Shown here: piece after piece, positions 24,673 to 50,368 of the stretch
How the letters are laid out: every line of letters starts with the position of its first letter
Position numbering within the stretch: the first letter of the stretch is position 1
Assembly (NCBI GenBank): GCA_947085205.1
Contig: CAMTVO010000014.1
Span: forward strand, 17,946-81,945
DNA: 64,000 bases
From: an uncultured Nitrospiraceae bacterium
Lineage (GTDB): Bacteria > Nitrospirota > Thermodesulfovibrionia > Thermodesulfovibrionales > Dissulfurispiraceae
Reading direction: 5' to 3'
Program-made: the position numbers and the translations under genes
The notes under the pieces: generated by a model
Databases searched by the model: none
Told to the model about the DNA's origin: nothing
Seen by the model: the letters and a program-made list of their open reading frames with translations, nothing else

Positions 24673-24900
24673 CTATTTGTCTTTCAATCCCAAGAAATCT
24701 TTAAGTTTGTCCATATCGAGCTTTGCTGCCTCAACATTTAGCTGTCTGAGTTTTTCATAGAGCTCTTCTCTGTAAATAGGCAGTTCCCTCGGCGCTTCTA
24801 TGCCGATTTTTACAAACCCGTTTCCTATTTCAACAATCTTTATCCGTATATTGTCGCCGATGTTTATTGTCTGATTTGTTTTTCTGGTTAGAACAAGCAT
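24673..24900 (-). CDS. csrA: Carbon storage regulator CsrA
   Basis: MLVLTRK..Q.I.IGD.I.I.IV.I....V.IGI.AP....I.R.E motif. 75 aa. Confidence 0.95.
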
Positions 24901-28560: not shown

Positions 28561-28837
28561 TGATAGCCTCCTTTAGAAGTTTGCCTGCTACCGCCTCGCC
28601 TCTGACATTATAGATGCCGGCGTTGATAGCATTTTTTATCTCATCTACACGGTCCGTCCTTATCTCAGGTAGTTTGCTGACCTCCACCTGCAGCCTGCCA
28701 ATCTCTTTGGCCTTTTCAGAGACCGTTACATGGTCCTTGGATAAAACCTCCTCCGACCTTTCCCCTGCCTTTTCCTTTGCCTTGTCGGGCTTCTGAAAAT
28801 TCGGCCCTACAACATCAATCTTGTCTGTTATTCTCAT
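28544..28837 (-). CDS. flgM: Anti-sigma-28 factor FlgM
   Basis: 97 aa. C-terminal RTDRVDEIKNAINAGIYNV...AGKLL, typical of FlgM. SD AAGGAGG. Confidence 0.75.
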   Translation of the reverse strand: MRITDKIDVVGPNFQKPDKAKEKAGERSEEVLSKDHVTVSEKAKEIGRLQVEVSKLPEIRTDRVDEIKNAINAGIYNVRGEAVAGKLLKEAIIDSII

Positions 28838-28878: not shown

Positions 28879-28905
28879 ATATCGGAGGATTTAACTAAAA
28901 ATTAA
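28879..28905 (-). promoter_or_regulatory. Weak sigma28-like promoter candidate upstream of flgM
   Basis: Minus strand reads TTAA-N15-TCCGATAT, a partial match to TAAA-N15-GCCGATAA. It lies ~40 nt upstream of ATG 28837. Confidence 0.3.
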
Positions 28906-29648: not shown

Positions 29649-30784
29649 ATTATCACCAATTCTGCCTTCAAGCTTCCGGCAGCTTTAATTGCTTGCAATA
29701 TCGCCACCATATCCTTGGGTGTTACGCCTAAGACATTAAACGCTTTAACCAGTTCACCGATTGTTGCCCCTTTCACCTCCACCATGGGCGCCTTTTTCTC
29801 CTCTGCCTTTATTTCTACTTTTGGGACAATTACTGTTTCAGCTGTGGGAGGGGCAAAAGGAGGAGGTTGAACAACCTCGTATTCAACCTTAATCTCTATG
29901 GCAAGTCCCCCATGCGCAAGGGCGATTGGACTGATTTTTACATTTTCACCTATGACAACTGTACCTGTCCTCTCATTGATAACAACCCTTGCAGGCATAT
30001 CCACATCTACATTTATAAGTTCGATTTTCGACATCAAATCAACTACCCTGTTTGTATAGGTATCCGGAACTTTTATGGAAATAACCGAAGGGCCTTCAGC
30101 CTTAGCGAAACTTCCACCGAGAATGTCGTTTATTCCATCGGTTATTTTCTTGGCAGTCGTAATGTCCTGAACGGTCAATAAAAGGTCTAATCTCTGTTTC
30201 TCGTTTAACTGCACAGGGACCTCTTTTTCGACAATAGCGCCATTAGGGATAGCGCCGACATTCGGATGATTCTTGATTACCTGTGCACCTGTTCCACCAG
30301 CCACAAATCCGCCAATAGATACAGGGCCTTGTGCAACAGCATAAACATTACCATCTGGCCCCTTTAGAGGCGCCATTAAAAGCGTCCCACCCTGAAGGCT
30401 CTTTGCATCGCCGATGGACGATACCTGAACGTCGACCTTAGAGCCCGGCTTTACCATTGTAGGCAGTTTTGCAGTAACTATTACCGCAGCTATGTTCTTT
30501 GTCTTTCCCTTTATATCTGCGGCATTCACGCTGATTCCCATTCTTGTAAGCATATTTGCAAACGGCTGGAATATGTATGTCCCGTCCTTATCGCCGGTGC
30601 CGTTGAGTCCGACAACAATTCCGTATCCGATAAGTTCGTTCTCCCTTATTCCGGAAAATGCGGCGATATCCTTAATCCTCTCGGCATGAACGACAGTGAA
30701 CAGTGAACAGTTAATAGTGAATAGTAAAAAACAGAAAAAAACAGTTCGTTGCATTTTTTTAAGATACTCAGTTTTCCGGTTCAT
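29645..30784 (-). CDS. flgI: Flagellar P-ring protein FlgI
   Basis: Full-length FlgI pattern (RIKDIA...RENELIGYG.VVGL.GTGD). Signal peptide ends VHA|E. SD AAGGAG. Confidence 0.95.
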   Translation of the reverse strand: MNRKTEYLKKMQRTVFFCFLLFTINCSLFTVVHAERIKDIAAFSGIRENELIGYGIVVGLNGTGDKDGTYIFQPFANMLTRMGISVNAADIKGKTKNIAAVIVTAKLPTMVKPGSKVDVQVSSIGDAKSLQGGTLLMAPLKGPDGNVYAVAQGPVSIGGFVAGGTGAQVIKNHPNVGAIPNGAIVEKEVPVQLNEKQRLDLLLTVQDITTAKKITDGINDILGGSFAKAEGPSVISIKVPDTYTNRVVDLMSKIELINVDVDMPARVVINERTGTVVIGENVKISPIALAHGGLAIEIKVEYEVVQPPPFAPPTAETVIVPKVEIKAEEKKAPMVEVKGATIGELVKAFNVLGVTPKDMVAILQAIKAAGSLKAELVIM

Positions 30785-30837
30785 CCCTTATACTCCTTTC
30801 TATTACTGTTCACTAAGCACTTTACACTATTCACTGC
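30694..30837. repeat. Inverted CAGTGAA-type arrays flanking the flgI start codon
   Basis: Coding arm 30694-30728 and 5' UTR arm 30803-30837 (TTCACTG orientation). About 29 of 39 positions are complementary by eye. Confidence 0.75.
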
Positions 30838-30839
30838 CG

Positions 30840-31568
30840 TTAAAACGGCCATACCTTGTCCAAAAATCTCACAAGCCAGCCCTGCGACTGCTTGTCATCC
30901 AAAACACCGTCGCCGACAAAGTATATCTGGGCGTCTGCTATATACTGTGACAGGACTGTATTATTCGGCGATATATCATCAGGCCTCACAATGCCCTTCA
31001 ATACGAGTATCTCTTTTTCATTGTTCACGACTACCTCTTTTCTCGACTCGAGCACCAGATTGGAATTGGGCAGAACCTCCACAACCTTTGCCGTTACAGT
31101 GCCTGTAAGTTTTCCCTCTCTCGTGGTATCGCCTTTTCCTTTAAAGTCAGACTTCCCCTTTCCCTCGACAGACGGAGAAAACACATTTGCCCCTTTGTAA
31201 AATCCGCCTAACATAGGGAGTTTATCTACGCCAAAGTCAGTATTCATCCCAAAAAAATTGTCCAGTCCGTAATCAGCGGATGAATCACGGCTGGCATTGG
31301 TGGTAGCCTTTTTAGAAGCGGTCGATTTTTCATTGATTAATATTGTCACAAGGTCATTTACCCTCTTAGCCCTTCTGTCCTCAAAAAGCGAAGCGCTGTC
31401 CTTCCATAAAGAACCTTCTGATGAGGATGCCTCTTTTTCCTTTGTTTCGACATATCTCGGCGGCATAGGAGCATTTTTTATATCGCGCGCGTCCTTGAGA
31501 CCGGAACAACCAATTAATACAGTGAACAGTGAACAGTGAACAGTGAACAGTAATATAGTGCGAATCAT
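30840..31568 (-). CDS. flgH: Flagellar L-ring lipoprotein FlgH
   Basis: Lipobox LIGC, GSLW, RAKRVNDLVTI, GKG.T..EG.LTG.VTA.V motifs. Confidence 0.95.
   Translation of the reverse strand: MIRTILLFTVHCSLFTVLIGCSGLKDARDIKNAPMPPRYVETKEKEASSSEGSLWKDSASLFEDRRAKRVNDLVTILINEKSTASKKATTNASRDSSADYGLDNFFGMNTDFGVDKLPMLGGFYKGANVFSPSVEGKGKSDFKGKGDTTREGKLTGTVTAKVVEVLPNSNLVLESRKEVVVNNEKEILVLKGIVRPDDISPNNTVLSQYIADAQIYFVGDGVLDDKQSQGWLVRFLDKVWPF
31520..31554. repeat. Heptamer array CAGTGAA x4 perfect (+CAGTAAT) in the flgH signal-peptide codons
   Basis: Read directly. Confidence 0.95.
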
Positions 31569-32320
31569 ATCTTTACCCTCACTGTATCAGGCGATGTAAG
31601 AATTCCGCTCACCTCTTTTTTGGACACATCGCATGAAACCTTTGCCGTACCGCCCATTACGGCGTCATTTTTGAGCGATCCCTGAGTTGTTATAACCACG
31701 TTGCCTCCTTCGACCACAACATTAACCCTCTGTCCCCTTTTAATGCTCAACTGGGTTGTTAGATGATCGCTCCTTAAAATAACCCCTTGTCCTATGTTCG
31801 TCTTAAGCGCTTTTCCTTCCAAATCGTTCATGCTCAACACTGCGCCTGCCGGCAGTCTCGAACTCTTCTGCTTTACGATATAAAAATCGTCAGCGCTCAG
31901 CGTAGTTCCTTTTACAAGAGGCCTTGAGGTTATGAACACATCCACAAGCACATTGTAAGATGCTTCGACAATTATACTTTTCGTCTCAATCTTCCTGTTT
32001 TTAAGACCGACTGAAAAATGAGCCTTATTGCGTCCTGCATATCCGTTCATAACTGCATTGGCAACCGTATACCCATCCGGGCTTTTTAAGACATCCGCCC
32101 CTGAGATTACTCTCAGTCCATTAACTTCGACATCTCCTGAAACAGACTTCTTCAGTTCATTCAATACTGCCTTTTTAACCGCATCCATCAATTCGACTTG
32201 AGCATAGGACTCGGTTATAGTAAGCAGTAAGCAGTAAGCAGTAAGCAGTAATATAGCAACAAGTAACGAATAACGAGTTTTTTGACTTCCGACTCTTGAT
32301 GCTTGACGCTCGACGCTCAT
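31565..32320 (-). CDS. flgA: Flagellar basal-body P-ring formation chaperone FlgA
   Basis: C-terminal SAF/ChapFlgA pattern (IKRGQRVNVV...G..V...G.....G..G..V.V). Signal peptide. SD GAGGAG. Confidence 0.85.
   Translation of the reverse strand: MSVERQASRVGSQKTRYSLLVAILLLTAYCLLLTITESYAQVELMDAVKKAVLNELKKSVSGDVEVNGLRVISGADVLKSPDGYTVANAVMNGYAGRNKAHFSVGLKNRKIETKSIIVEASYNVLVDVFITSRPLVKGTTLSADDFYIVKQKSSRLPAGAVLSMNDLEGKALKTNIGQGVILRSDHLTTQLSIKRGQRVNVVVEGGNVVITTQGSLKNDAVMGGTAKVSCDVSKKEVSGILTSPDTVRVKI
32218..32318. repeat. Three arrays (CAGTAAG x3 perfect + 2 degenerate; GTAACGA x2; GACGCTC-type x5) in the flgA 5' coding region
   Basis: Arrays at 32218-32252, 32263-32277 and 32284-32318. Confidence 0.9.
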
Positions 32321-32324
32321 TTTA

Positions 32325-33113
32325 TTATCTCCTCAGTGCACTGGCAGTCTGGAGCATTTCATCAGACGCCTGCACCGCCTTTGAGTTAAGGTCAAATGCC
32401 CTTTGAGCGATTATGAGATTAGCCAGCTCTTCAACAACATTGACATTTGACATCTCCACAAAGCCTTGATTTATAGAGCCTCGGCCTTCAGTGCCGGGTG
32501 TGCCGGTGGCAGCCTCTCCTGAAGCATCGGTGGCGAGGAAGAGATTCTTGCCCAATGCAAGAAGACCTGCTGGGTTTACGAATCGCGCTGTCTCTATCGT
32601 GCCTATTTCAACAGGCGTAGTGCTTCCTGCCTGCAATACAGTTACTCGACCGTCGGAGCCTACGGTGATTTTAGTTGTGTCGGCAGGAATGGTAATAGCA
32701 GGCTCAAGGGGATAACCGTCGGAGTTTACAATCCTACCGTCCCTGTCGAGTTTTAATGCTCCGGCCCTCGTGTATGCTATTGTTCCGTCAGGCCTTGTAA
32801 CCTGAAAAAAGCCGTCGCCTTCTATAACAAGGTCGAGGTCATTACCGGTATTTATAAAGTCGCCTTGCGTAAAGAGCTTCTGGACAGCAACAGGCTTAAC
32901 TCCGAGACCAATCTGTATTCCAGACGGTATCTGGACTCCTTCTCCTGATGGTGCGCCGGGAGCCTTTATTGTCTGATAAAGCAAATCCTGAAAATCCGCT
33001 CTGCTCCTTTTAAAGCCTACTGTGTTCACATTTGCAAGATTGTTTGCTATAACATCCACATTTAAGCTCTGTGCATGCATGCCTGTTGCTGCGGTAAAAA
33101 GCGATCTTATCAT
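32325..33113 (-). CDS. flgG: Flagellar distal rod protein FlgG
   Basis: [12 protein letters not shown]....[18 protein letters not shown]-terminus. C-terminal [24 protein letters not shown]. Confidence 0.95.
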
Positions 33114-33122
33114 CTTACCCCC

Positions 33123-33842
33123 TTATATTTTTGCAATCTCAGAAACAGCCCTCTGGGAAAGCTCCTCGAAGCTCTTAATAACCTTCTGGGCTGTTTCGTA
33201 TTGCCTCAATGCAGTTATTATGCCGACCATTTCACGAATCGGATTCACATTCGACATCTCGATGCCGCCCTGAATTATCTCGCCTTTAGATGCGCCTGCT
33301 TCATTTCCGGAAAAGAGAGAATCTCCGGCATGCTCTATGTTATTCAGATTTATCAGTTTGAGCTTGGCTGCTATATTGCCGTTCATGTATATATTGCCGT
33401 CAGGAGCGATGTTGACGCTTTTACCCTCGATTCTTATGGGTTTATTCGCCGTATCCAGCGCTTTCTGTCCGTTTGCTGTAACCAGAAATCCGTCTTTATT
33501 CATGCTGAAAGAGCCGTTCCTGGTGTAATAGGTCTTGTCATGCCCCTCAATTGCAAAAAAGCCCTCGCCTTTAATTGCAAGGTCGAGCGGATTGCCGGTA
33601 GTCTTTATATTCCCTTCAGAGGTATCGATATGGTACTTACCGTAATAAGCCATAGCCCTCGCATCGGGATAGACAGCTTTCTGTTCCTGCGGTACGCCTT
33701 CCAATAATGGATACAGACGGGAAGAAAACGATGTCCTCTTATAGCCCGCTGTGCTGACATTCGCCAAATTATTGGCGACACTGTCCAGTTCTCGACTTCT
33801 CAGCACCGCCCCTGTCATTGCTATGTATATGCCTTTGTACAT
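33123..33842 (-). CDS. flgF: Flagellar proximal rod protein FlgF
   Basis: Rod-family N-terminus (ANNLANVSTAGYK) and C-terminus (SNVNPIREMVGIITALRQYE). Directly upstream of flgG. Confidence 0.85.
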   Translation of the reverse strand: MYKGIYIAMTGAVLRSRELDSVANNLANVSTAGYKRTSFSSRLYPLLEGVPQEQKAVYPDARAMAYYGKYHIDTSEGNIKTTGNPLDLAIKGEGFFAIEGHDKTYYTRNGSFSMNKDGFLVTANGQKALDTANKPIRIEGKSVNIAPDGNIYMNGNIAAKLKLINLNNIEHAGDSLFSGNEAGASKGEIIQGGIEMSNVNPIREMVGIITALRQYETAQKVIKSFEELSQRAVSEIAKI

Positions 33843-33899
33843 TCAACCGTCCTTCTTTTAAGAGTTTTATTTAAAATTTTATTTAATATTTAATAACAA

Positions 33900-33914
33900 G
33901 CAATATTGATGCCA
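33900..33914 (-). promoter_or_regulatory. Sigma54 (-24/-12) promoter upstream of flgF
   Basis: Minus strand reads TGGCAT-caata-TTGCT, which fits TGGCAC-N5-TTGCW. It lies ~57 nt upstream of ATG 33842, immediately downstream of an inverted repeat array. Confidence 0.7.
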
Positions 33915-33919
33915 GAATT

Positions 33920-34005
33920 GCGTTATAACGTGCAGCGTTGAGAGTTATAGTGAAAATAATAAAAAAACGCCATGACGCAATAAACGCTATAACTCATGAC
34001 GCTAT
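33920..34005. repeat. Inverted pair of GCGTTATA/TATAACGC-type arrays between the micro-ORF and the flgF promoter
   Basis: Arms at ~33920-33952 and ~33967-34005, with an A/T-rich loop. Confidence 0.8.
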
Positions 34006-34037
34006 CTGGTGGGAAAATTTTTCCTGAGGTAGGAAAA

Positions 34038-34220
34038 TTATACCTCTATGTCTATTCCTTCTCTTTTTTCTTCGCCTGATTTTTTGGGGAGTTCTTTCTC
34101 TTCTTTGGGAGGCTTCTTTGCCTTGCGCTCTACTCTCGTCTTCGGAAACACATGTTCCGCTCCTATGCCGCGTATGCCTGCGACCCTGTAAAGCTCTCTT
34201 ATGCCGTCATCGTCTGCCAT
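34038..34220 (-). CDS. Hypothetical 60-aa basic protein, transcribed from a consensus sigma28 promoter (possibly leaderless)
   Basis: ATG 34220 lies 11 nt downstream of the -10 element GCCGATAA, with no SD. The product is Lys/Glu-rich and no family was recognised. Coding status is uncertain and it could be an sRNA. Confidence 0.4.
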   Translation of the reverse strand: MADDDGIRELYRVAGIRGIGAEHVFPKTRVERKAKKPPKEEKELPKKSGEEKREGIDIEV

Positions 34221-34231
34221 CTTAATTTTTT

Positions 34232-34258
34232 TTATCGGCAGGAACTTGATTTTCTTTA
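34232..34258 (-). promoter_or_regulatory. Sigma28 (FliA) promoter
   Basis: Minus strand reads TAAA-gaaaatcaagttcct-GCCGATAA, an exact match to TAAA-N15-GCCGATAA. It starts just after the HDOD stop codon, and the -10 element ends 11 nt before ATG 34220. Confidence 0.75.
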
Positions 34259-34259
34259 G

Positions 34260-35102
34260 CTACTCCAAAAGCTTGGCCTTTTGTTCTGTATACGCTTTCT
34301 TTATAGTCTCCTGAATTCCGCTGAATTTTTCTTCAGACATGCCTAACCGTTCAAGTTCGATATTGGATACATTTACAGGCCGCCGCAAGCCGATACCGAG
34401 ATTTAAACAAACAGCATCGGCAATCTTGATCATCTCGCAAAGTGTTTCAAAATTACTGTCTTCAAAGGCAGGAAATGTTTCTAAGTGATGATACTCTATA
34501 ACCACTTCGAGGTTTTTGGGCAGCTTCCACTTTCTTGCAATAAGACCCCCAACATTGCAGTGGTTAAACCCAAGCATCTCATCCTCAACCTCTATAAAAG
34601 ACAGTCCCTCTTCATAAACCTTTTCAATAACTACAGAATACGACTCAGACATGCTGTTGTTGAGAACAGTTTTTCCAACATCGTGAATCAACCCTGCAAC
34701 AAGCGCTTCCTCAGCCTGCACCATCTTTGTCTCTGCAGCAAGGATAGATGCAGCAATAGACACGCCAAGGCTGTGTTCCCAGAGTCTCTGCTCGAAGAGA
34801 CCGAACTTCCTGTGCAAGTCCTTCAATGAGGCGGCAACCACAAGATTTTTCATGGTATTAAAGCCAATAAGAATTATTGCAGTGGATATTGTGTCTATGC
34901 TCTTGCCCCTGCCGTAATACGGCGAGTTGGCAATCCTCAGAAGCCTTGTGGAAAATGCCTGGTCTTTGGAAATAATCTTTTCGAGCTCGTTTATAGATGA
35001 GTAATCGTCATTCATAAGCTGTAAGACCTTCATTGCAACAGGAGGAAGGCTTGGAATGTCAACGGTCTCTAAAATAATTTTTTCTAATATCTCTTCTTTC
35101 AT
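34260..35102 (-). CDS. HDOD domain protein
   Basis: LPPVAMKVLQLMNDD....ELEKIISKDQAFSTRLLRIANSPYYG, typical of HDOD. Confidence 0.85.
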   Translation of the reverse strand: MKEEILEKIILETVDIPSLPPVAMKVLQLMNDDYSSINELEKIISKDQAFSTRLLRIANSPYYGRGKSIDTISTAIILIGFNTMKNLVVAASLKDLHRKFGLFEQRLWEHSLGVSIAASILAAETKMVQAEEALVAGLIHDVGKTVLNNSMSESYSVVIEKVYEEGLSFIEVEDEMLGFNHCNVGGLIARKWKLPKNLEVVIEYHHLETFPAFEDSNFETLCEMIKIADAVCLNLGIGLRRPVNVSNIELERLGMSEEKFSGIQETIKKAYTEQKAKLLE

Positions 35103-36361
35103 GCCGTCCCCTCATACCTCATATACTCTTCCCCTGCCTTAAGCTGAGCATCGAGCCTCACATCATTGAGGTGCTTAAAATATGTGCTTGCGACACTCAC
35201 AATACTTGGGTCGAGGCTATTGTTTTTAGCCATGCCTTCTATTATTCTCAAAGCCTCCTTTCCACTCATCCCTTTTCTGTAAGGTCTGTCCTCTGTTATT
35301 GCAGTAAAGACATCAGCTACTGCCATAATCCTTGAGCCAATTGGCAACTTATTGCCCTTTATATGGAACGGATAGCCGTCACCATCCATCCGTTCATGGT
35401 GAAAGGATGCCCATGTATTAATTATATCAAACCCTTTCACAGATTCCAGTATTCTGAAGGAATGATAAACATGACTTTTCATTATATTGAATTCTTCCAC
35501 TGAAAGTTTTGCAGGTTTTTCGAGTATTTCTGCCGGAACAGCCAATTTGCCGACGTCGTGGAGATAACCTGCAACAGACATCATCCGACACTCCATCTCT
35601 GAAAAACCTATCATCTGTGCCAGTAATGTAGCCACTGCACTTACACCTGCTGAATGAACTGCTGTAAATGAACTTCTATAATCCACAATATTACTGAAAA
35701 GTTTAGCAATACTTAGAAGGCCTTCCATATCCAGCTCTATATCAGGCAGAACATTTCTATCTAAAATTATCTGGTCAATCTCCGGCGATGTTGCATCAAA
35801 CCAGAAAGATTCTTTAGCTGATAGGTTCTCAAAGAGATCTACAAGCTCAGGCATAAATATTTTATTTGAGCGGGATTTGACTACATTCACTATGCTTTTG
35901 CTCTGACTCAGCACCTCCTGATGTTTATCAATAAGCACTTCTATCCTGTCAGCAAGATAGATGATATGGCCGCCAATAGGGACGTCTTCTCCATTAAACC
36001 TGCGACCTTCGCCTTCTGCCCATGGGATATGATGGTAACGAATAAGCTTAGAAACAGATGGAAATATGTCAAAGTCCTTAATAAGCAAATATCCCCTTTC
36101 AGCATGCAGGTAAGGGTTTTTAATCTCAAATTCGAGGGAATCAATCTTTTCATGCTCTGAAAAAACACCAATGTCATGAATTGCTGATGCTAAAAATATA
36201 TCATTTATCTCCTGTCGTGAAAGCCCTGATTCCTTTGCTATCTCACTGGCAATTACAGCCACCCTCAGATGGTGATTGGCAACTTTTGGATTAACAAAAT
36301 CCAGTGCCCTTGAAAAGGAAAGGATCAGGTCAGATAGTTTTATTCTTATGTTACCAATCAT
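35099..36361 (-). CDS. HD-GYP domain protein (tandem HD domains; c-di-GMP phosphodiesterase candidate)
   Basis: HDIGV and HDVGKLAVP HD motifs plus HHERMDGDGYP. ATGA overlap with the HDOD gene. Confidence 0.85.
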   Translation of the reverse strand: MIGNIRIKLSDLILSFSRALDFVNPKVANHHLRVAVIASEIAKESGLSRQEINDIFLASAIHDIGVFSEHEKIDSLEFEIKNPYLHAERGYLLIKDFDIFPSVSKLIRYHHIPWAEGEGRRFNGEDVPIGGHIIYLADRIEVLIDKHQEVLSQSKSIVNVVKSRSNKIFMPELVDLFENLSAKESFWFDATSPEIDQIILDRNVLPDIELDMEGLLSIAKLFSNIVDYRSSFTAVHSAGVSAVATLLAQMIGFSEMECRMMSVAGYLHDVGKLAVPAEILEKPAKLSVEEFNIMKSHVYHSFRILESVKGFDIINTWASFHHERMDGDGYPFHIKGNKLPIGSRIMAVADVFTAITEDRPYRKGMSGKEALRIIEGMAKNNSLDPSIVSVASTYFKHLNDVRLDAQLKAGEEYMRYEGTA

Positions 36362-36393
36362 AACTTTGTATCATCACTCCATTACTCCATTAT

Positions 36394-38367
36394 TTACGCC
36401 TCAGCCTCGAGCTTCGTCAGTATGGAGATTATCTCATCAACCAATCTCACTGATTCTGTCACACGAAGCTTTATTGATTCCCTGTCTCCTTTTTTCGCAG
36501 CTTCGTAAGCCTTCAATCCGAGTTCATGCAGTCTGCTGTGAGGCGACTCGAGATCTCTGAATAAACTGCGATTTCCGAACAACTCTCTTCCCTCTCCGTA
36601 ATACCATGCGCCCATCCTCGATTTATCTGCATGCAGCTCATCAGGACCGACTGATATTTCCTTTGCATCAAGGAGGTTCAGAATCCTGTGAAGCCACAAA
36701 ACATAATCTGCCTTAAGCACACCTATTCTCATTTTAGGGTCGTTAAAACCATCCAGCAAGCTTAAAAATTCCTTTGCATCGGTGCTGAATTTATTAAAGG
36801 ACAATGCCATGTCCTTGACTGTCTTAGAGCTCCCCTTTGCATCTTCCGCAATGTTGGTTAAGTTGCTCGATATTTCGGTTGCAGTAGCCGACTGTTCCTC
36901 CGTAGCGGTGACCACCTGATGAATCATGTCTGAGACCTTTTCAAAACTTTCGTATATTTGCATAAATGCGCCTTCCAGACGTCGCGCAATCTCACCTGTA
37001 ACTTTAGACTTTTCAACTGCCACATCCATTATATCTGTGGCATCAACCGTGCCTGCATGTATAGAGCTCAAAATATTGTTTATCTCGGATGTTGCGTTTG
37101 CAGTCCTCTGCGCAAGCTTCCTCACCTCGTCAGCAACTACCGCAAATCCCCTTCCCTGCTCCCCTGCCCTTGCAGCCTCTATTGCGGCATTCAGGGCGAG
37201 GAGGTTTGTCTGGTCCGCTATATCCTTTATCATTACCACTATCTCGTCTATTTTCTTTGAAAATTCGGACAGATCCTTTACCTTGCCCGATGCCTTTTCT
37301 ATCTGCGTATTCACTTCGTCTATGGAAGATACCGTTTCATTGATCATCCCCTTACCTTGAGACGATGCTGTTTTTGCGCGCTCTGCCGCCTGCGATGCGA
37401 TATTTATATTGCGCGCTATGTCGCCTATGGTAGACGACATCTCCTCTGTTGCAGTTGCAGCAGTAGTTGTGCGTTCAAGGTCTTTATCAACCCTCTGCGA
37501 TACATCCTTGCCGTAAAGGGTAAGGTTGACGGCATCCTTTAGGATATGAACCGTCTTGCCCGCCACATCCCTCATAACATGCCTCATTGCCTTTATTATG
37601 CTCGTTACATCTTCCGCCACCTTCCCGAACTCGTCGGCGGTCTTTGATTCAATCCTGACTGTAAGGTCGCCTTTTGCAACCTTCCCTGCAGATGCGCTGA
37701 TATCGTGCAGGACACTGATGACATACCTGTTGACAAACCAGAAAGAGAACGCAAAAGCTATAGAGAATACCACGAGAACAATTACTGCCACAGAGACTGT
37801 GGTCGTCTTGATTTCTCTCTTAATAGTATCCATGCTATTGACAAATTCTTTTCTTGAGTCTTCTATAATTTCGTCCATCATTCCTAAAAATATCTTTGAC
37901 CTTTCCGCTTGCACGGTCCCGACTATTTTTAGCATATCGTTGATTCTTTCCGATTTGATTAAGGCAATCACTTCACCTTTAATGGTCTGCAAAAAAGGCG
38001 CTATCGCCTTTTCCATTTCTACGGTTTTATCCTTATACCTGCCTTTTTTTAATTCTTCGGTATTTCTTAAAATTTTATCCGAAAGAGAGACGATAACGCC
38101 CTCCTGCGCTTCCCATACATCTGGGTCTTTTGCCAAGCTCATCCTCAAAAATGCAGCCCTTATTCCGTTAATATCTGCCTTGATCTGGGTTATCAGTTGA
38201 ATGTCGTTGCTCATAGTATTCATGGAATCGTATTTCGATTTGATGCTCATGAAATTGACGCCTATCAATCCTAATATCCCGAATATCAGGGCAGTCATAA
38301 AGATATAGCCCATCAACACCTTCTTCTTCAGGCCAATTGACAGTACTAAAGAAAACAAACCCTTCAT
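36394..38367 (-). CDS. Methyl-accepting chemotaxis protein with a C-terminal CZB-like domain
   Basis: Two TM helices, HAMP, signalling hairpin [38 protein letters not shown]-terminal ...LWLHRI...SRMGAWY...HSRLH resembles a chemoreceptor zinc-binding domain. Confidence 0.9.
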
Positions 38368-49612: not shown

Positions 49613-50368
49613 TTATGCGTTCCCATCCCTGAATTGCTCCATTTTATTTCTAAGTTTAATAAGGACCTTTCCATGCAGCTGACAAACCCTCGACTCGCTT
49701 ATGTCCAGAATCTTTCCTATCTCCTTCATTGTGAGTTCTTCAAAATAATAAAGCGTTACCACAAGCCTTTCCTTCTCCGGGAGTCCATCTATGGCATTTC
49801 CAAGTGCAGACCTCAATTCCTTCAGGTTCAATTCATCCAGCATGTCCCTCTCGTCCTCCCTCGATATGCATTCAAGGATGTCGAGGGTTTCTCCGTCTTT
49901 GCCGACGCCTAAATCCTCGAGGCATATCATATTCATGGTGTTGACTGTAGAAAGGGTCTTATAAAGTTCATCAAGTGTTATATTCAGCTTCTCGGCAACC
50001 TCCTCATCAGTGGCTATCCTGTTAAGGCTTTTTTCGAGCTCTGAATAAGTATTCCTTACCTCTTCCAGCTTCTTCCTTGCATCCTTTGATGCCCACTGCA
50101 TGGAGCGAATCTCGTCAATTATTGCTCCCCTTATCCTGAAGTCCGCAAAGGTGCTGAGAGTAGCGTTCATAGAAGGGTCGTATCTTTCTATTGCCTCTAA
50201 AAGCCCGACTATTCCGGCTGATACTAAATCTTCTATACTCAACTCAGGAGGCAGGTAGAACGCATATTTGCCTGCATAATACTTTATCCTCGGCAGGAAC
50301 TGTTCGACTATCTTTTCTTTTTGCTTCTGGGATATTCTTTGTTTTCGGGCTAATTTCTTCATCAGCAT
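49613..50368 (-). CDS. fliA: Flagellar sigma factor FliA (sigma-28)
   Basis: Sigma70 regions 2, 3 and 4 (DLVSAGIVGLLEAIERYD, LYYFEELTMKEIGKILDISESRVCQLH). Follows flhF-flhG. Confidence 0.9.
   Translation of the reverse strand: MLMKKLARKQRISQKQKEKIVEQFLPRIKYYAGKYAFYLPPELSIEDLVSAGIVGLLEAIERYDPSMNATLSTFADFRIRGAIIDEIRSMQWASKDARKKLEEVRNTYSELEKSLNRIATDEEVAEKLNITLDELYKTLSTVNTMNMICLEDLGVGKDGETLDILECISREDERDMLDELNLKELRSALGNAIDGLPEKERLVVTLYYFEELTMKEIGKILDISESRVCQLHGKVLIKLRNKMEQFRDGNA

What the first reader, a model, noticed from the sequence alone, without database searches (positions are those of the whole stretch)
34038..34258. Perfect sigma28 promoter driving a nearly leaderless 60-codon ORF (or sRNA) between the HDOD gene and flgF
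TAAA-N15-GCCGATAA is an exact consensus match. It starts right after the HDOD stop codon and ends 11 nt before ATG 34220, with no SD. The ORF encodes MADDDGIRELYRVAGIRGIG… followed by a Lys/Glu-rich tail, and I recognise no family. It is followed by the array hairpin. A dedicated class-3 (FliA-dependent) transcript of unknown function within a flagellar/chemotaxis region is a good candidate for a new late flagellar factor or regulatory RNA.
Basis: partly seen in the sequence, partly recalled or inferred. Interest (0 to 1): 0.62.

Follow-up and report, generated by a model that had tools for sequence, protein, structure and literature searches.

The report
Sigma-28-driven leaderless small flagellar protein gene
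A real, conserved late-flagellar (sigma-28) promoter sits almost directly on the start codon of a 60-residue, disordered, highly charged protein that has no known family and occurs only in one order of Nitrospirota, making it a new but modest candidate flagellar accessory factor.

Summary
An exact sigma-28 consensus (TAAA-N15-GCCGATAA, 34232-34258, minus strand) ends 11 nt before the ATG of a 60-codon ORF (34038-34220) with no Shine-Dalgarno sequence.

It is a protein gene, not primarily an sRNA:
- 25 loci in Dissulfurispiraceae and Thermodesulfovibrio keep the frame open. Starts are always ATG, dN/dS is 0.13-0.7, and the third codon position varies most.
- 20 of 25 loci keep the -10 box 6-11 nt from the ATG, so the mRNA is leaderless or nearly so.
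- In two genomes the promoter-plus-ORF unit is inverted relative to both neighbours, so it is autonomous and does not drive flgF.

The protein is predicted disordered, about 40% charged, and ends in I-D-I-x-V. It has no Pfam, NCBIfam or PDB match. FliA and a canonical FlgM are encoded elsewhere in the window, so it is not FlgM.

Other families of the order carry a probable 40-49-aa short form at the same position. That form often has an SD and is followed closely by a DUF6115/DUF2802 (FipA-like) gene, which the long-form genomes lack.

The "conserved 3' motif" is two 13-bp palindromes belonging to the sigma-54 flgF promoter region. The ORF's stop codon lies inside the first one.

Function is inferred only, and no RNA-seq data could be found.

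The parts
34255..34258 (-). Sigma-28 -35 element, TAAA(G)
   Evidence: TAAA, TCAA or TGAA is conserved at an exact 15-nt spacer in 20 of 25 loci.
34232..34239 (-). Sigma-28 -10 element, GCCGATAA
   Evidence: At least 6 of 8 positions match in 20 of 25 loci, always 6-11 nt from the ATG.
34221..34226 (-). Predicted transcription start zone, giving a leader of about 2-5 nt and no Shine-Dalgarno sequence
   Evidence: Inferred from the usual spacing of about 6-7 nt between a -10 element and +1. Not mapped. A conserved (C/T)AAG lies immediately before the ATG.
34038..34220 (-). Small ORF of 60 aa (MADDDGIRELYRV...EGIDIEV) encoding a disordered, charged protein of an uncharacterised family
34032..34044 (-). 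Palindrome site 1, GGTATAATTTTCC, containing the ORF's last codon (GTA) and its TAA stop
   Evidence: The last codon is always GTA or GCA and the stop is always TAA in the 25 long-form loci. The site is also present in genomes that lack the ORF.
34012..34024 (-). Palindrome site 2, GGAAAAATTTTCC, 20 bp after site 1
   Evidence: The combined element is unique in the genome. Of 20 sigma-54-like promoters, only the flgF promoter has it.
33961..34003 (-). Intrinsic terminator (hairpin plus U7) that ends the small transcription unit.
   Evidence: dG -13.8 kcal/mol, z -3.3. Lineage-specific terminator-like hairpins occupy the same place in other loci.
33899..33914 (-). Sigma-54 promoter of flgF, TGGCATCAATATTGCT. 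It belongs to the neighbouring unit, not to the small gene.
   Evidence: A one-mismatch search found a sigma-54-like match 27-89 nt upstream of flgF in nearly all 34 loci scanned (167 nt in L008).
34260..35102 (-). Upstream neighbour, an HDOD-domain protein. Its TAG stop lies 1 nt before the -35 element.
   Evidence: PF08668, E 4.5e-59. The HDOD-to-small-ORF adjacency is conserved in two families.
33123..33842 (-). Downstream neighbour, flgF (the rod operon flgFGAH...)

Best explanation
This is an autonomous class-3 (FliA/sigma-28-dependent) transcription unit of about 265 nt. Sigma-28 RNA polymerase is inferred to start 2-5 nt before the AUG, and at the AUG itself in some relatives. The mRNA is therefore leaderless or nearly so and would be translated without a Shine-Dalgarno sequence. 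Transcription stops at a hairpin-U7 terminator before the sigma-54 flgF promoter.

The product is a 57-67-aa, intrinsically disordered protein that is about 40% charged. It has a conserved N-terminal block (MAxDEGIxxxYRxxGIRxIGxxxVFPKTRV), a variable Lys/Glu-rich linker and a conserved C-terminal I/V-D-I/V-x-V/A-COOH.

Inferred function: it is made only after hook-basal-body completion. It would act by folding onto a partner in flagellar assembly or placement control. The candidate partners are the adjacent HDOD protein, or the machinery served by the DUF6115/DUF2802 (FipA-like) protein whose gene closely follows its probable short-form relatives.

Shown here: the promoter match and its conservation, the coding constraint, the synteny, the predicted disorder and the absence of any known family. 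Inferred: the transcription start, leaderless translation, the timing of expression and the partner. The confidence given covers the whole statement: about 0.85 for the anatomy (real sigma-28-type promoter, protein-coding, autonomous unit) and about 0.3 for the proposed mode of action.
For: - Promoter match: exact sigma-28 consensus, with 5 exact genome hits against 0.35 expected.
- The sigma-28 system is in use: the same consensus precedes the flagellin gene, and a weaker match (TTAA-N15-TCCGATAT) lies in the region upstream of flgM. fliA is present.
- Promoter conservation: the -35/-10 boxes with a 15-nt spacer are kept in 20 of 25 loci, with the -10 box 6-11 nt from the ATG.
- Start codons: all 25 are ATG, as leaderless translation requires.
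- Coding constraint: the frame is open in all loci, across at least 12 genera. dN/dS is 0.13-0.7. The fraction of non-majority bases is 0.33, 0.27 and 0.47 at codon positions 1, 2 and 3. Indels occur in multiples of 3.
- Family size: 40 cluster representatives among 1.84 billion proteins, 39 of them 55-93 aa and mostly 57-76 aa; one weak hit is a 418-aa protein.
- Autonomy: in L007 and L010 the promoter-plus-ORF block points away from flgF and converges on the HDOD gene.
- Termination: a terminator lies downstream.
- Disorder: AlphaFold2 run on a 25-sequence alignment gives pLDDT 51 and no secondary structure.
- Synteny: the order HDOD, small ORF, flgF holds in Dissulfurispiraceae and Thermodesulfovibrio.
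- Short form: a short form followed closely by a DUF6115/DUF2802 gene is present in other lineages. DUF6115 is absent from the long-form genomes.
- The C-terminal IDIxV peptide is conserved in short-form loci, where it does not overlap the DNA palindrome and the final codon and stop codon vary.
Against: - No transcript data of any kind could be found. The transcription start, leaderless translation and FliA dependence are therefore inferred.
- Five of 25 long-form loci lack a recognisable sigma-28 promoter, including both Thermodesulfovibrio loci. Two of the five, L014 and L016, have SD-like sequences instead.
- Some flagellated relatives (G010, G029) lack the gene altogether. It is therefore not essential for flagellation.
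- Homology between the long and short forms rests on position, composition and a 9-residue C-terminal match (hhalign probability 73%).
- No partner has been tested.
Confidence: 0.55

Rival explanations
1. The protein is a late flagellar type III export substrate, or an FlgM-like checkpoint factor. In this reading a small disordered protein is made under sigma-28 control. It is secreted through the finished flagellum, or it binds a regulator (sigma-28, sigma-54 or its activator) until it is exported.
For: - It is small, disordered and under sigma-28 control, like FlgM.
- The N-terminus is conserved.
- It lies inside the flagellar cluster.
Against: - A canonical FlgM (PF04316, 61.5 bits) is encoded about 5.4 kb away.
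- The protein gives no FlgM Pfam signal.
- No export signal can be recognised from sequence alone.
Confidence: 0.15
2. The main role is transcriptional. Sigma-28-driven transcription runs across the two palindromes upstream of the sigma-54 flgF promoter and terminates just past them. Once late genes switch on, this would displace whatever binds there and turn down rod-gene expression. The peptide would be secondary.
For: - The stop codon lies inside site 1, and the terminator follows site 2 directly.
- The dual site is unique in the genome and is found only at the flgF promoter.
- The dual site is conserved order-wide and also occurs without the ORF.
Against: - Purifying selection acts on the protein.
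- The C-terminal peptide motif is conserved where it does not overlap the DNA site.
- In L007 and L010 the inverted unit still carries the sites, which is neutral with respect to this idea.
- No binding factor has been identified.
Confidence: 0.12
3. The transcript is primarily a regulatory RNA: a sigma-28-dependent sRNA, or a dual-function RNA whose ORF is incidental.
For: - Sigma-28-dependent sRNAs exist in E. coli and C. jejuni (PMC10578931, PMC11187230).
- The transcript is short, has its own terminator and has no SD.
Against: - The frame is conserved, dN/dS is below 1 and the third codon position is the most variable.
- The whole-transcript fold is no better than shuffled sequence (z -0.44).
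- There is no covariation and no Rfam match.
- The conserved 3' sequence is a DNA element that also exists in genomes without the gene.
Confidence: 0.08
4. The sigma-28 promoter is a second, late promoter for the flgFGAH operon, and the ORF is a leader peptide or attenuator.
For: - In most loci the ORF lies directly upstream of flgF and on the same strand.
- Leaderless short ORFs act as attenuators in mycobacteria (preprint 10.1101/834739).
Against: - A strong terminator and a separate conserved sigma-54 promoter lie in between.
- The distance to flgF varies from 118 to 621 nt and is filled with lineage-specific sequence.
- In L007 and L010 the unit points away from flgF.
Confidence: 0.05

Closest known systems
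Class-3 (FliA/sigma-28) flagellar promoters, consensus TAAAGTTT-N11-GCCGATAA
   Same: - The TAAA-N15-GCCGATAA match is exact.
- fliA is present.
- The flagellin gene of the same genome carries the same type of promoter, and flgM probably does.
   Different: - The -10 box sits only 6-11 nt from the start codon, so the mRNA is leaderless or nearly so. The flagellin gene of this genome, by contrast, has a leader of about 140 nt.
FlgM, the anti-sigma-28 factor
   Same: - It is a small, intrinsically disordered protein expressed from a sigma-28 promoter inside a flagellar cluster.
   Different: - There is no PF04316 signal.
- A canonical FlgM is encoded separately.
- The conserved motifs are different.
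Sigma-28-dependent small RNAs (E. coli FliX, MotR, UhpU and FlgO; C. jejuni CJnc230 and CJnc170)
   Same: - It is a short transcript under sigma-28 control, embedded among flagellar genes.
   Different: - Here the conserved feature is an ORF under purifying selection.
- There is no conserved RNA structure and no Rfam family.
FipA/DUF2802 and DUF6115 proteins. FipA is the FlhF interaction partner in gammaproteobacteria (PMC11620751).
   Same: - In other Thermodesulfovibrionales families a probable short form of the small ORF is followed closely by a coiled-coil DUF6115/DUF2802 gene at the same locus.
   Different: - The small protein itself is unrelated to DUF2802.
- The Nitrospirota DUF6115 proteins show no obvious hydrophobic N-terminal segment of the kind that anchors FipA (read from the sequences; not tested with a topology predictor). 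They reach the DUF2802 cut-off only marginally.
- This genome has no such gene.
HDOD-domain adaptor SadB of Pseudomonas (PMC12075610)
   Same: - An HDOD protein linked to flagellar and biofilm control acts through protein-protein contacts as an adaptor. That makes the adjacent HDOD protein a plausible partner.
   Different: - SadB has an extra YbaK-like domain and targets AmrZ.
- No interaction has been tested here.

Membership tests
Sigma-28 (FliA) dependent promoter | -35 TAAA(GTTT) and -10 GCCGATAA elements with the canonical spacing | tested here: met
   Exact match at 34232-34258. It is conserved with a 15-nt spacer in 20 of 25 loci.
Sigma-28 (FliA) dependent promoter | The organism encodes FliA and uses the same motif at bona fide late genes | tested here: met
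   - FliA matches TIGR02479 at 240 bits, inside the window.
- The flagellin gene has TAAAGTTT-N11-TCCGATAA upstream.
- A candidate flgM promoter lies at 28879-28905.
Sigma-28 (FliA) dependent promoter | Transcription start mapped downstream of the -10 box and lost without FliA | not testable with these tools
   No RNA runs could be found for this genome or for two relatives.
Leaderless mRNA | The 5' end lies at or within a few nt of an AUG, with no Shine-Dalgarno sequence | tested here: inconclusive
   - The -10 box lies 6-11 nt from the ATG in 20 loci.
- The start codon is ATG in all 25 loci.
- No SD is present in the window.
- The actual 5' end has not been mapped.
Protein-coding gene rather than sRNA | Conserved reading frame under purifying selection | tested here: met
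   - The frame is open in 25 loci.
- dN/dS is 0.13-0.7 and the third codon position is the most variable.
- Indels occur in multiples of 3.
FlgM (PF04316) | Match to the FlgM sigma-28-binding domain | tested here: not met
   No Pfam hit at E <= 1. A canonical FlgM is encoded at window position about 28571-28735.
Known RNA family (Rfam) | Covariance-model match | tested here: not met
   No match at E <= 1 in window 30000-38000.
Any Pfam, NCBIfam or PDB protein family | Profile or sequence match | tested here: not met
   All database homologues that carry a name are 'hypothetical protein'.

The most novel reading that the evidence does not exclude
The unit is a two-in-one late-to-middle feedback device. 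Sigma-28 fires a leaderless gene whose transcription and translation end inside the dedicated dual-palindrome control element of the sigma-54 rod operon (flgFGAH). Completion of the hook-basal body would then act in two ways. It would disturb that element physically, and it would supply a disordered protein that took over the role of a lost DUF6115/FipA-like partner.
Probability: 0.1. Interest if true: 0.7.

Novelty: new member of a known kind. Interest (0 to 1): 0.45.

Why it matters
Flagellar hierarchies outside the Proteobacteria and Firmicutes are poorly charted, and small proteins are routinely missed. This locus gives a clean, comparatively supported example of a sigma-28-controlled, apparently leaderless small-protein gene in Nitrospirota (Thermodesulfovibrionales).

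It also ties together three poorly understood players: an HDOD protein, DUF6115/DUF2802 (FipA-like) proteins, and a locus-specific dual palindrome at a sigma-54 rod promoter. If the protein proves to bind one of these, it would add a new late regulator or adaptor to flagellar assembly or placement.

The family is taxonomically narrow and is dispensable in some flagellated relatives, so its general impact is likely to be moderate.

Tried and rejected
- **Known families:** Pfam, NCBIfam, Rfam and PDB sequence searches gave nothing for the small protein or for the region.
- **Structure:** AlphaFold2 on a 25-sequence alignment gave only disorder, so no fold search was worthwhile.
- **Expression data:** four searches for public runs found only DNA metagenomes and no RNA.
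- **3' motif as an RNA hairpin, terminator or 3'UTR element:**
  - RNAalifold gave -1.5 kcal/mol and the named hairpin showed no covariation.
  - The element also turned out to exist in genomes without the ORF and after other genes.
  - I first thought it was glued to the ORF and had to revise that.
- **3' motif as a general flagellar enhancer:** rejected, because it is unique in the genome and absent from the 19 other sigma-54-like promoters, including flhB.
- **Read-through from HDOD:** the ORF is in frame with HDOD across its TAG stop in this genome, but relatives have several stop codons there. This is a coincidence.
- **TATAAT at the stop codon as a sigma-70 -10 box:** there is no conserved -35 or TG extension (read from the sequence).
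- **CsrA site:** csrA is present, but the element has a single GGA and behaves as a DNA element. Not pursued.
- **C-terminal IDIxV as a shared docking tag:** only one other ORF in the genome ends this way, which is about what chance predicts.
- **Relation to the DUF6115 protein:** none.
- **Profile scan of genome contigs:** it failed for lack of a conserved stretch. The single-sequence scan gave one locus.

Full report
**1. Observation**

All features below are on the minus strand. The HDOD gene (34260-35102; PF08668, E 4.5e-59) ends with TAG at 34260-34262. One base later comes TAAAGAAAATCAAGTTCCTGCCGATAA (34258-34232), which is TAAA-N15-GCCGATAA exactly. It is the only exact match in the window. 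At one mismatch the window has 2 matches against 0.42 expected. The whole 1.89-Mb genome has 5 exact matches against about 0.35 expected from base composition.

Eleven bases (AAAAAATTAAG) separate the -10 box from ATG 34220, and no Shine-Dalgarno sequence is present. The ORF 34038-34220 encodes MADDDGIRELYRVAGIRGIGAEHVFPKTRVERKAKKPPKEEKELPKKSGEEKREGIDIEV. A hairpin with a U7 tail follows at about 33961-34003 (dG -13.8 kcal/mol, z -3.3). The sigma-54 promoter of flgF, TGGCATCAATATTGCT, lies at 33899-33914.

**2. Is sigma-28 used here?**

fliA lies in the window (TIGR02479, 240 bits, at about 49637-50311). A canonical flgM also lies in the window (PF04316, 61.5 bits, at about 28571-28735). The flagellin gene on another contig is preceded by TAAAGTTTTTTAAATTCCCTCCGATAA. 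A TTAA-N15-TCCGATAT element lies about 150 nt upstream of the FlgM-domain match (28879-28905); the flgM start codon was not mapped. The consensus is therefore meaningful in this organism.

**3. The ORF is a conserved protein gene**

- A word-indexed search found five metagenomic proteins at 65-93% identity.
- A six-frame search of 60 related genomes found it with no internal stops in 20 loci at E < 1e-4.
- Four weaker hits proved syntenic on inspection.
- A profile search of 1.84 billion cluster representatives returned 40 proteins. All but one (a weak hit to a 418-aa protein) are 55-93 aa, and most are 57-76 aa.
- Named members are "hypothetical protein" from Dissulfurispiraceae, Thermodesulfovibrio (for example TAGGR_1417) and Thermodesulfovibrionales MAGs.

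The alignment shows three parts:
- a conserved N-terminal block, MAxDEGIxxxYRxxGIRxIGxxxVFPKTRV;
- a Lys/Glu-rich linker of variable length, with indels in whole codons;
- a conserved C-terminus, G-[IV]-D-[IV]-x-[VA].

The 15 least-diverged pairs (pS < 0.6) give dN/dS of 0.13-0.71; over all pairs mean pN is 0.42 against mean pS 0.73. The non-majority base fraction is 0.33, 0.27 and 0.47 at codon positions 1, 2 and 3. All 25 starts are ATG. The proteins are about 41% charged, strongly hydrophilic (GRAVY about -1) and mostly basic. AlphaFold2 run on the alignment predicts no structure (pLDDT 51). There is no Pfam, NCBIfam or PDB match.

**4. The promoter and the leaderless layout are conserved**

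In 20 of 25 long-form loci the best -10 match has at least 6 of 8 identities to GCCGATAA. It lies exactly 15 nt after TAAA, TCAA, TGAA or TTAA, and its end is 6-11 nt from the ATG. If +1 lies about 6-7 nt after the -10 box, by analogy with other bacterial promoters, two groups follow. This spacing is established knowledge and was not measured here.
- The 6-nt group (L015, L018-L020) would start at the A of the AUG.
- The 9-11-nt group, which includes this window, would have a leader of 2-5 nt. These loci share (C/T)AAG just before the ATG.

Five loci lack the promoter. Two of these, L014 and L016, have SD-like sequences. L013 has neither. In the two Thermodesulfovibrio loci the ORF starts 6-20 nt after the HDOD stop and is probably co-transcribed with it.

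**5. Autonomy**

The gene order HDOD, small ORF, flgF, flgG holds in 17 of the first 20 loci and in all five added later. In L007 and L010 (one genus) the promoter-plus-ORF block is inverted. It diverges from flgF, back to back with flgF's sigma-54 promoter, and converges on the HDOD gene. A third genome of the same genus keeps the usual orientation.

Three things rule out a role as a flgF promoter: the terminator, the separate conserved sigma-54 promoter, and a 118-621-nt spacer filled with variable sequence. These same points also argue against a leader-peptide attenuator.

**6. The conserved sequence after the stop codon**

The stop is always TAA and the last codon is always GTA or GCA. About 33 nt of highly conserved sequence follows. 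I first read this as a 3'UTR element of the small gene. It is unique in the genome. A strict pattern for it occurs exactly once in each of 20 of 201 genomes of the order, against 2 hits for the reversed control pattern.

Further work changed that reading:
- There is no RNA-structure support.
- It resolves into two 13-bp imperfect palindromes, GGTATAATTTTCC (34032-34044) and GGAAAAATTTTCC (34012-34024), spaced 19-22 bp apart.
- In families with another gene upstream, it follows that gene instead.
- In G010 and G029 it is present although the small ORF is absent.
- Of 20 sigma-54-like promoters in this genome, only flgF has it.
- In compact loci, site 2 lies 67-110 bp upstream of the -24 element.

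It is therefore most likely a DNA element of the flgF control region. It could be an activator or operator site, or phased A/T-tract bends. The small ORF simply terminates inside site 1.

The C-terminal peptide motif is nonetheless a protein-level feature. In short-form loci, where it does not overlap the palindrome, it is kept (IDIRV, IDIKV, IDIQA), while the final codon and the stop codon vary.

**7. Wider family**

Genomes that seemed to lack the ORF carry a 40-49-aa ORF at the same position, after HDOD or, in one case, after fliA. An example is MAVEAPKSIFKIPVIKKDREEPRRGRKKPKIQKKDKKERTGRIDIKV. Several of these ORFs (L036, L043, L044) have an SD-like sequence upstream. None has a recognisable sigma-28 -10 box in the 75 nt upstream, by inspection. 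The ORF is followed closely by a 111-126-aa coiled-coil gene with an HTH-like C-terminus (stop and ATG 1 nt apart in L036 and L044, up to 16 nt in the others), and then by flgF.

That second gene matches DUF6115 (27-33 bits, cut-off 27), reaches the DUF2802 cut-off only marginally, and shows no obvious hydrophobic N-terminal segment. DUF2802 is the domain of FipA, the FlhF partner that sets polar flagellum placement in gammaproteobacteria (PMC11620751).

The distribution is complementary. Long-form genomes, including this one, lack a DUF6115 gene. Short-form genomes have one next to flgF (tblastn).

Long and short forms align confidently only over the last 9 residues (hhalign probability 73%). 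I therefore call them probable positional orthologues, not proven homologues.

**8. What it most likely is**

- Shown: a conserved sigma-28-type promoter, a conserved coding frame for a disordered charged protein, an autonomous unit, and fixed synteny with HDOD and flgF.
- Inferred: class-3 timing, leaderless 70S translation, and action by binding a partner.

There are two candidate partners. One is the adjacent HDOD protein. HDOD proteins can act as protein adaptors in motility and biofilm control, as SadB does (PMC12075610). The other is the FlhF/FlhG-type placement system, implied by the FipA-like neighbour of the short form.

Rivals, with their evidence, are listed in the structured Rival explanations section. 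They are an exported FlgM-like factor, transcriptional interference with the flgF control element, an sRNA, and a second flgF promoter.

**9. Novelty and value**

The protein family is uncharacterised and restricted to Thermodesulfovibrionales. The kind of thing, a sigma-28-controlled late flagellar accessory gene, is known. The leaderless coupling of a sigma-28 promoter to a small ORF, and the overlap of its stop codon with a locus-specific dual palindrome, are uncommon details. Some flagellated relatives lack the gene, so it is an accessory factor. I rate the interest as moderate.

Noticed in passing
window 34012-34044 (-); also L034 1261-1292 and L035 1314-1345: There are two 13-bp imperfect palindromes, GGTATAATTTTCC and GGAAAAATTTTCC, about 20 bp apart. 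They are unique in the genome and conserved across the order upstream of the sigma-54 flgF promoter, including in genomes that lack the small ORF. They are a probable activator or operator site, or a phased-bend element, dedicated to the rod operon. The binding factor is unknown.
   Followed up: yes
L036, L039, L040, L041, L043, L044 (between HDOD or fliA and flgF): Other Thermodesulfovibrionales families have a two-gene cassette here. A 40-49-aa Lys-rich ORF ending in IDI(R/K)V is followed closely (stop and ATG 1-16 nt apart) by a 111-126-aa DUF6115/DUF2802 (FipA-like) coiled-coil gene with an HTH-like C-terminus. That gene shows no obvious hydrophobic N-terminal segment and is absent from this genome.
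   Followed up: partly
L007 and L010 (two genomes of one genus), compared with L006 (a third genome of that genus): The sigma-28 promoter, small ORF and palindromes are inverted as a block between flgF and the HDOD gene. This places the sigma-28 and sigma-54 promoters back to back. A congener keeps the usual orientation.
   Followed up: partly
window 28879-28905 (-): TTAATTTTTAGTTAAATCCTCCGATAT is a sigma-28-like element in the region upstream of the canonical flgM gene (the domain match lies at about 28571-28735).
   Followed up: no
own genome, contig C2:31225-31251 (+), outside the window: A second sigma-28-like element (TAAA-N15-ACCGATAA) also ends 11 nt before an ATG. It heads a 143-aa ORF that looks like an isolated histidine-kinase ATPase domain. 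This is possibly another near-leaderless sigma-28 unit, or an internal promoter.
   Followed up: no
window 34220-34262 (-): The small ORF is in frame with the HDOD gene across a single TAG, with no further stop in the 39 nt between. Relatives have several stop codons there, so this looks coincidental.
   Followed up: yes
window about 24745-24900 (-): A csrA gene (PF02599, 85 bits) lies in the same flagellar cluster. The flagellin gene has a leader of about 140 nt. Together these are consistent with CsrA/FliW-type control of flagellin.
   Followed up: no
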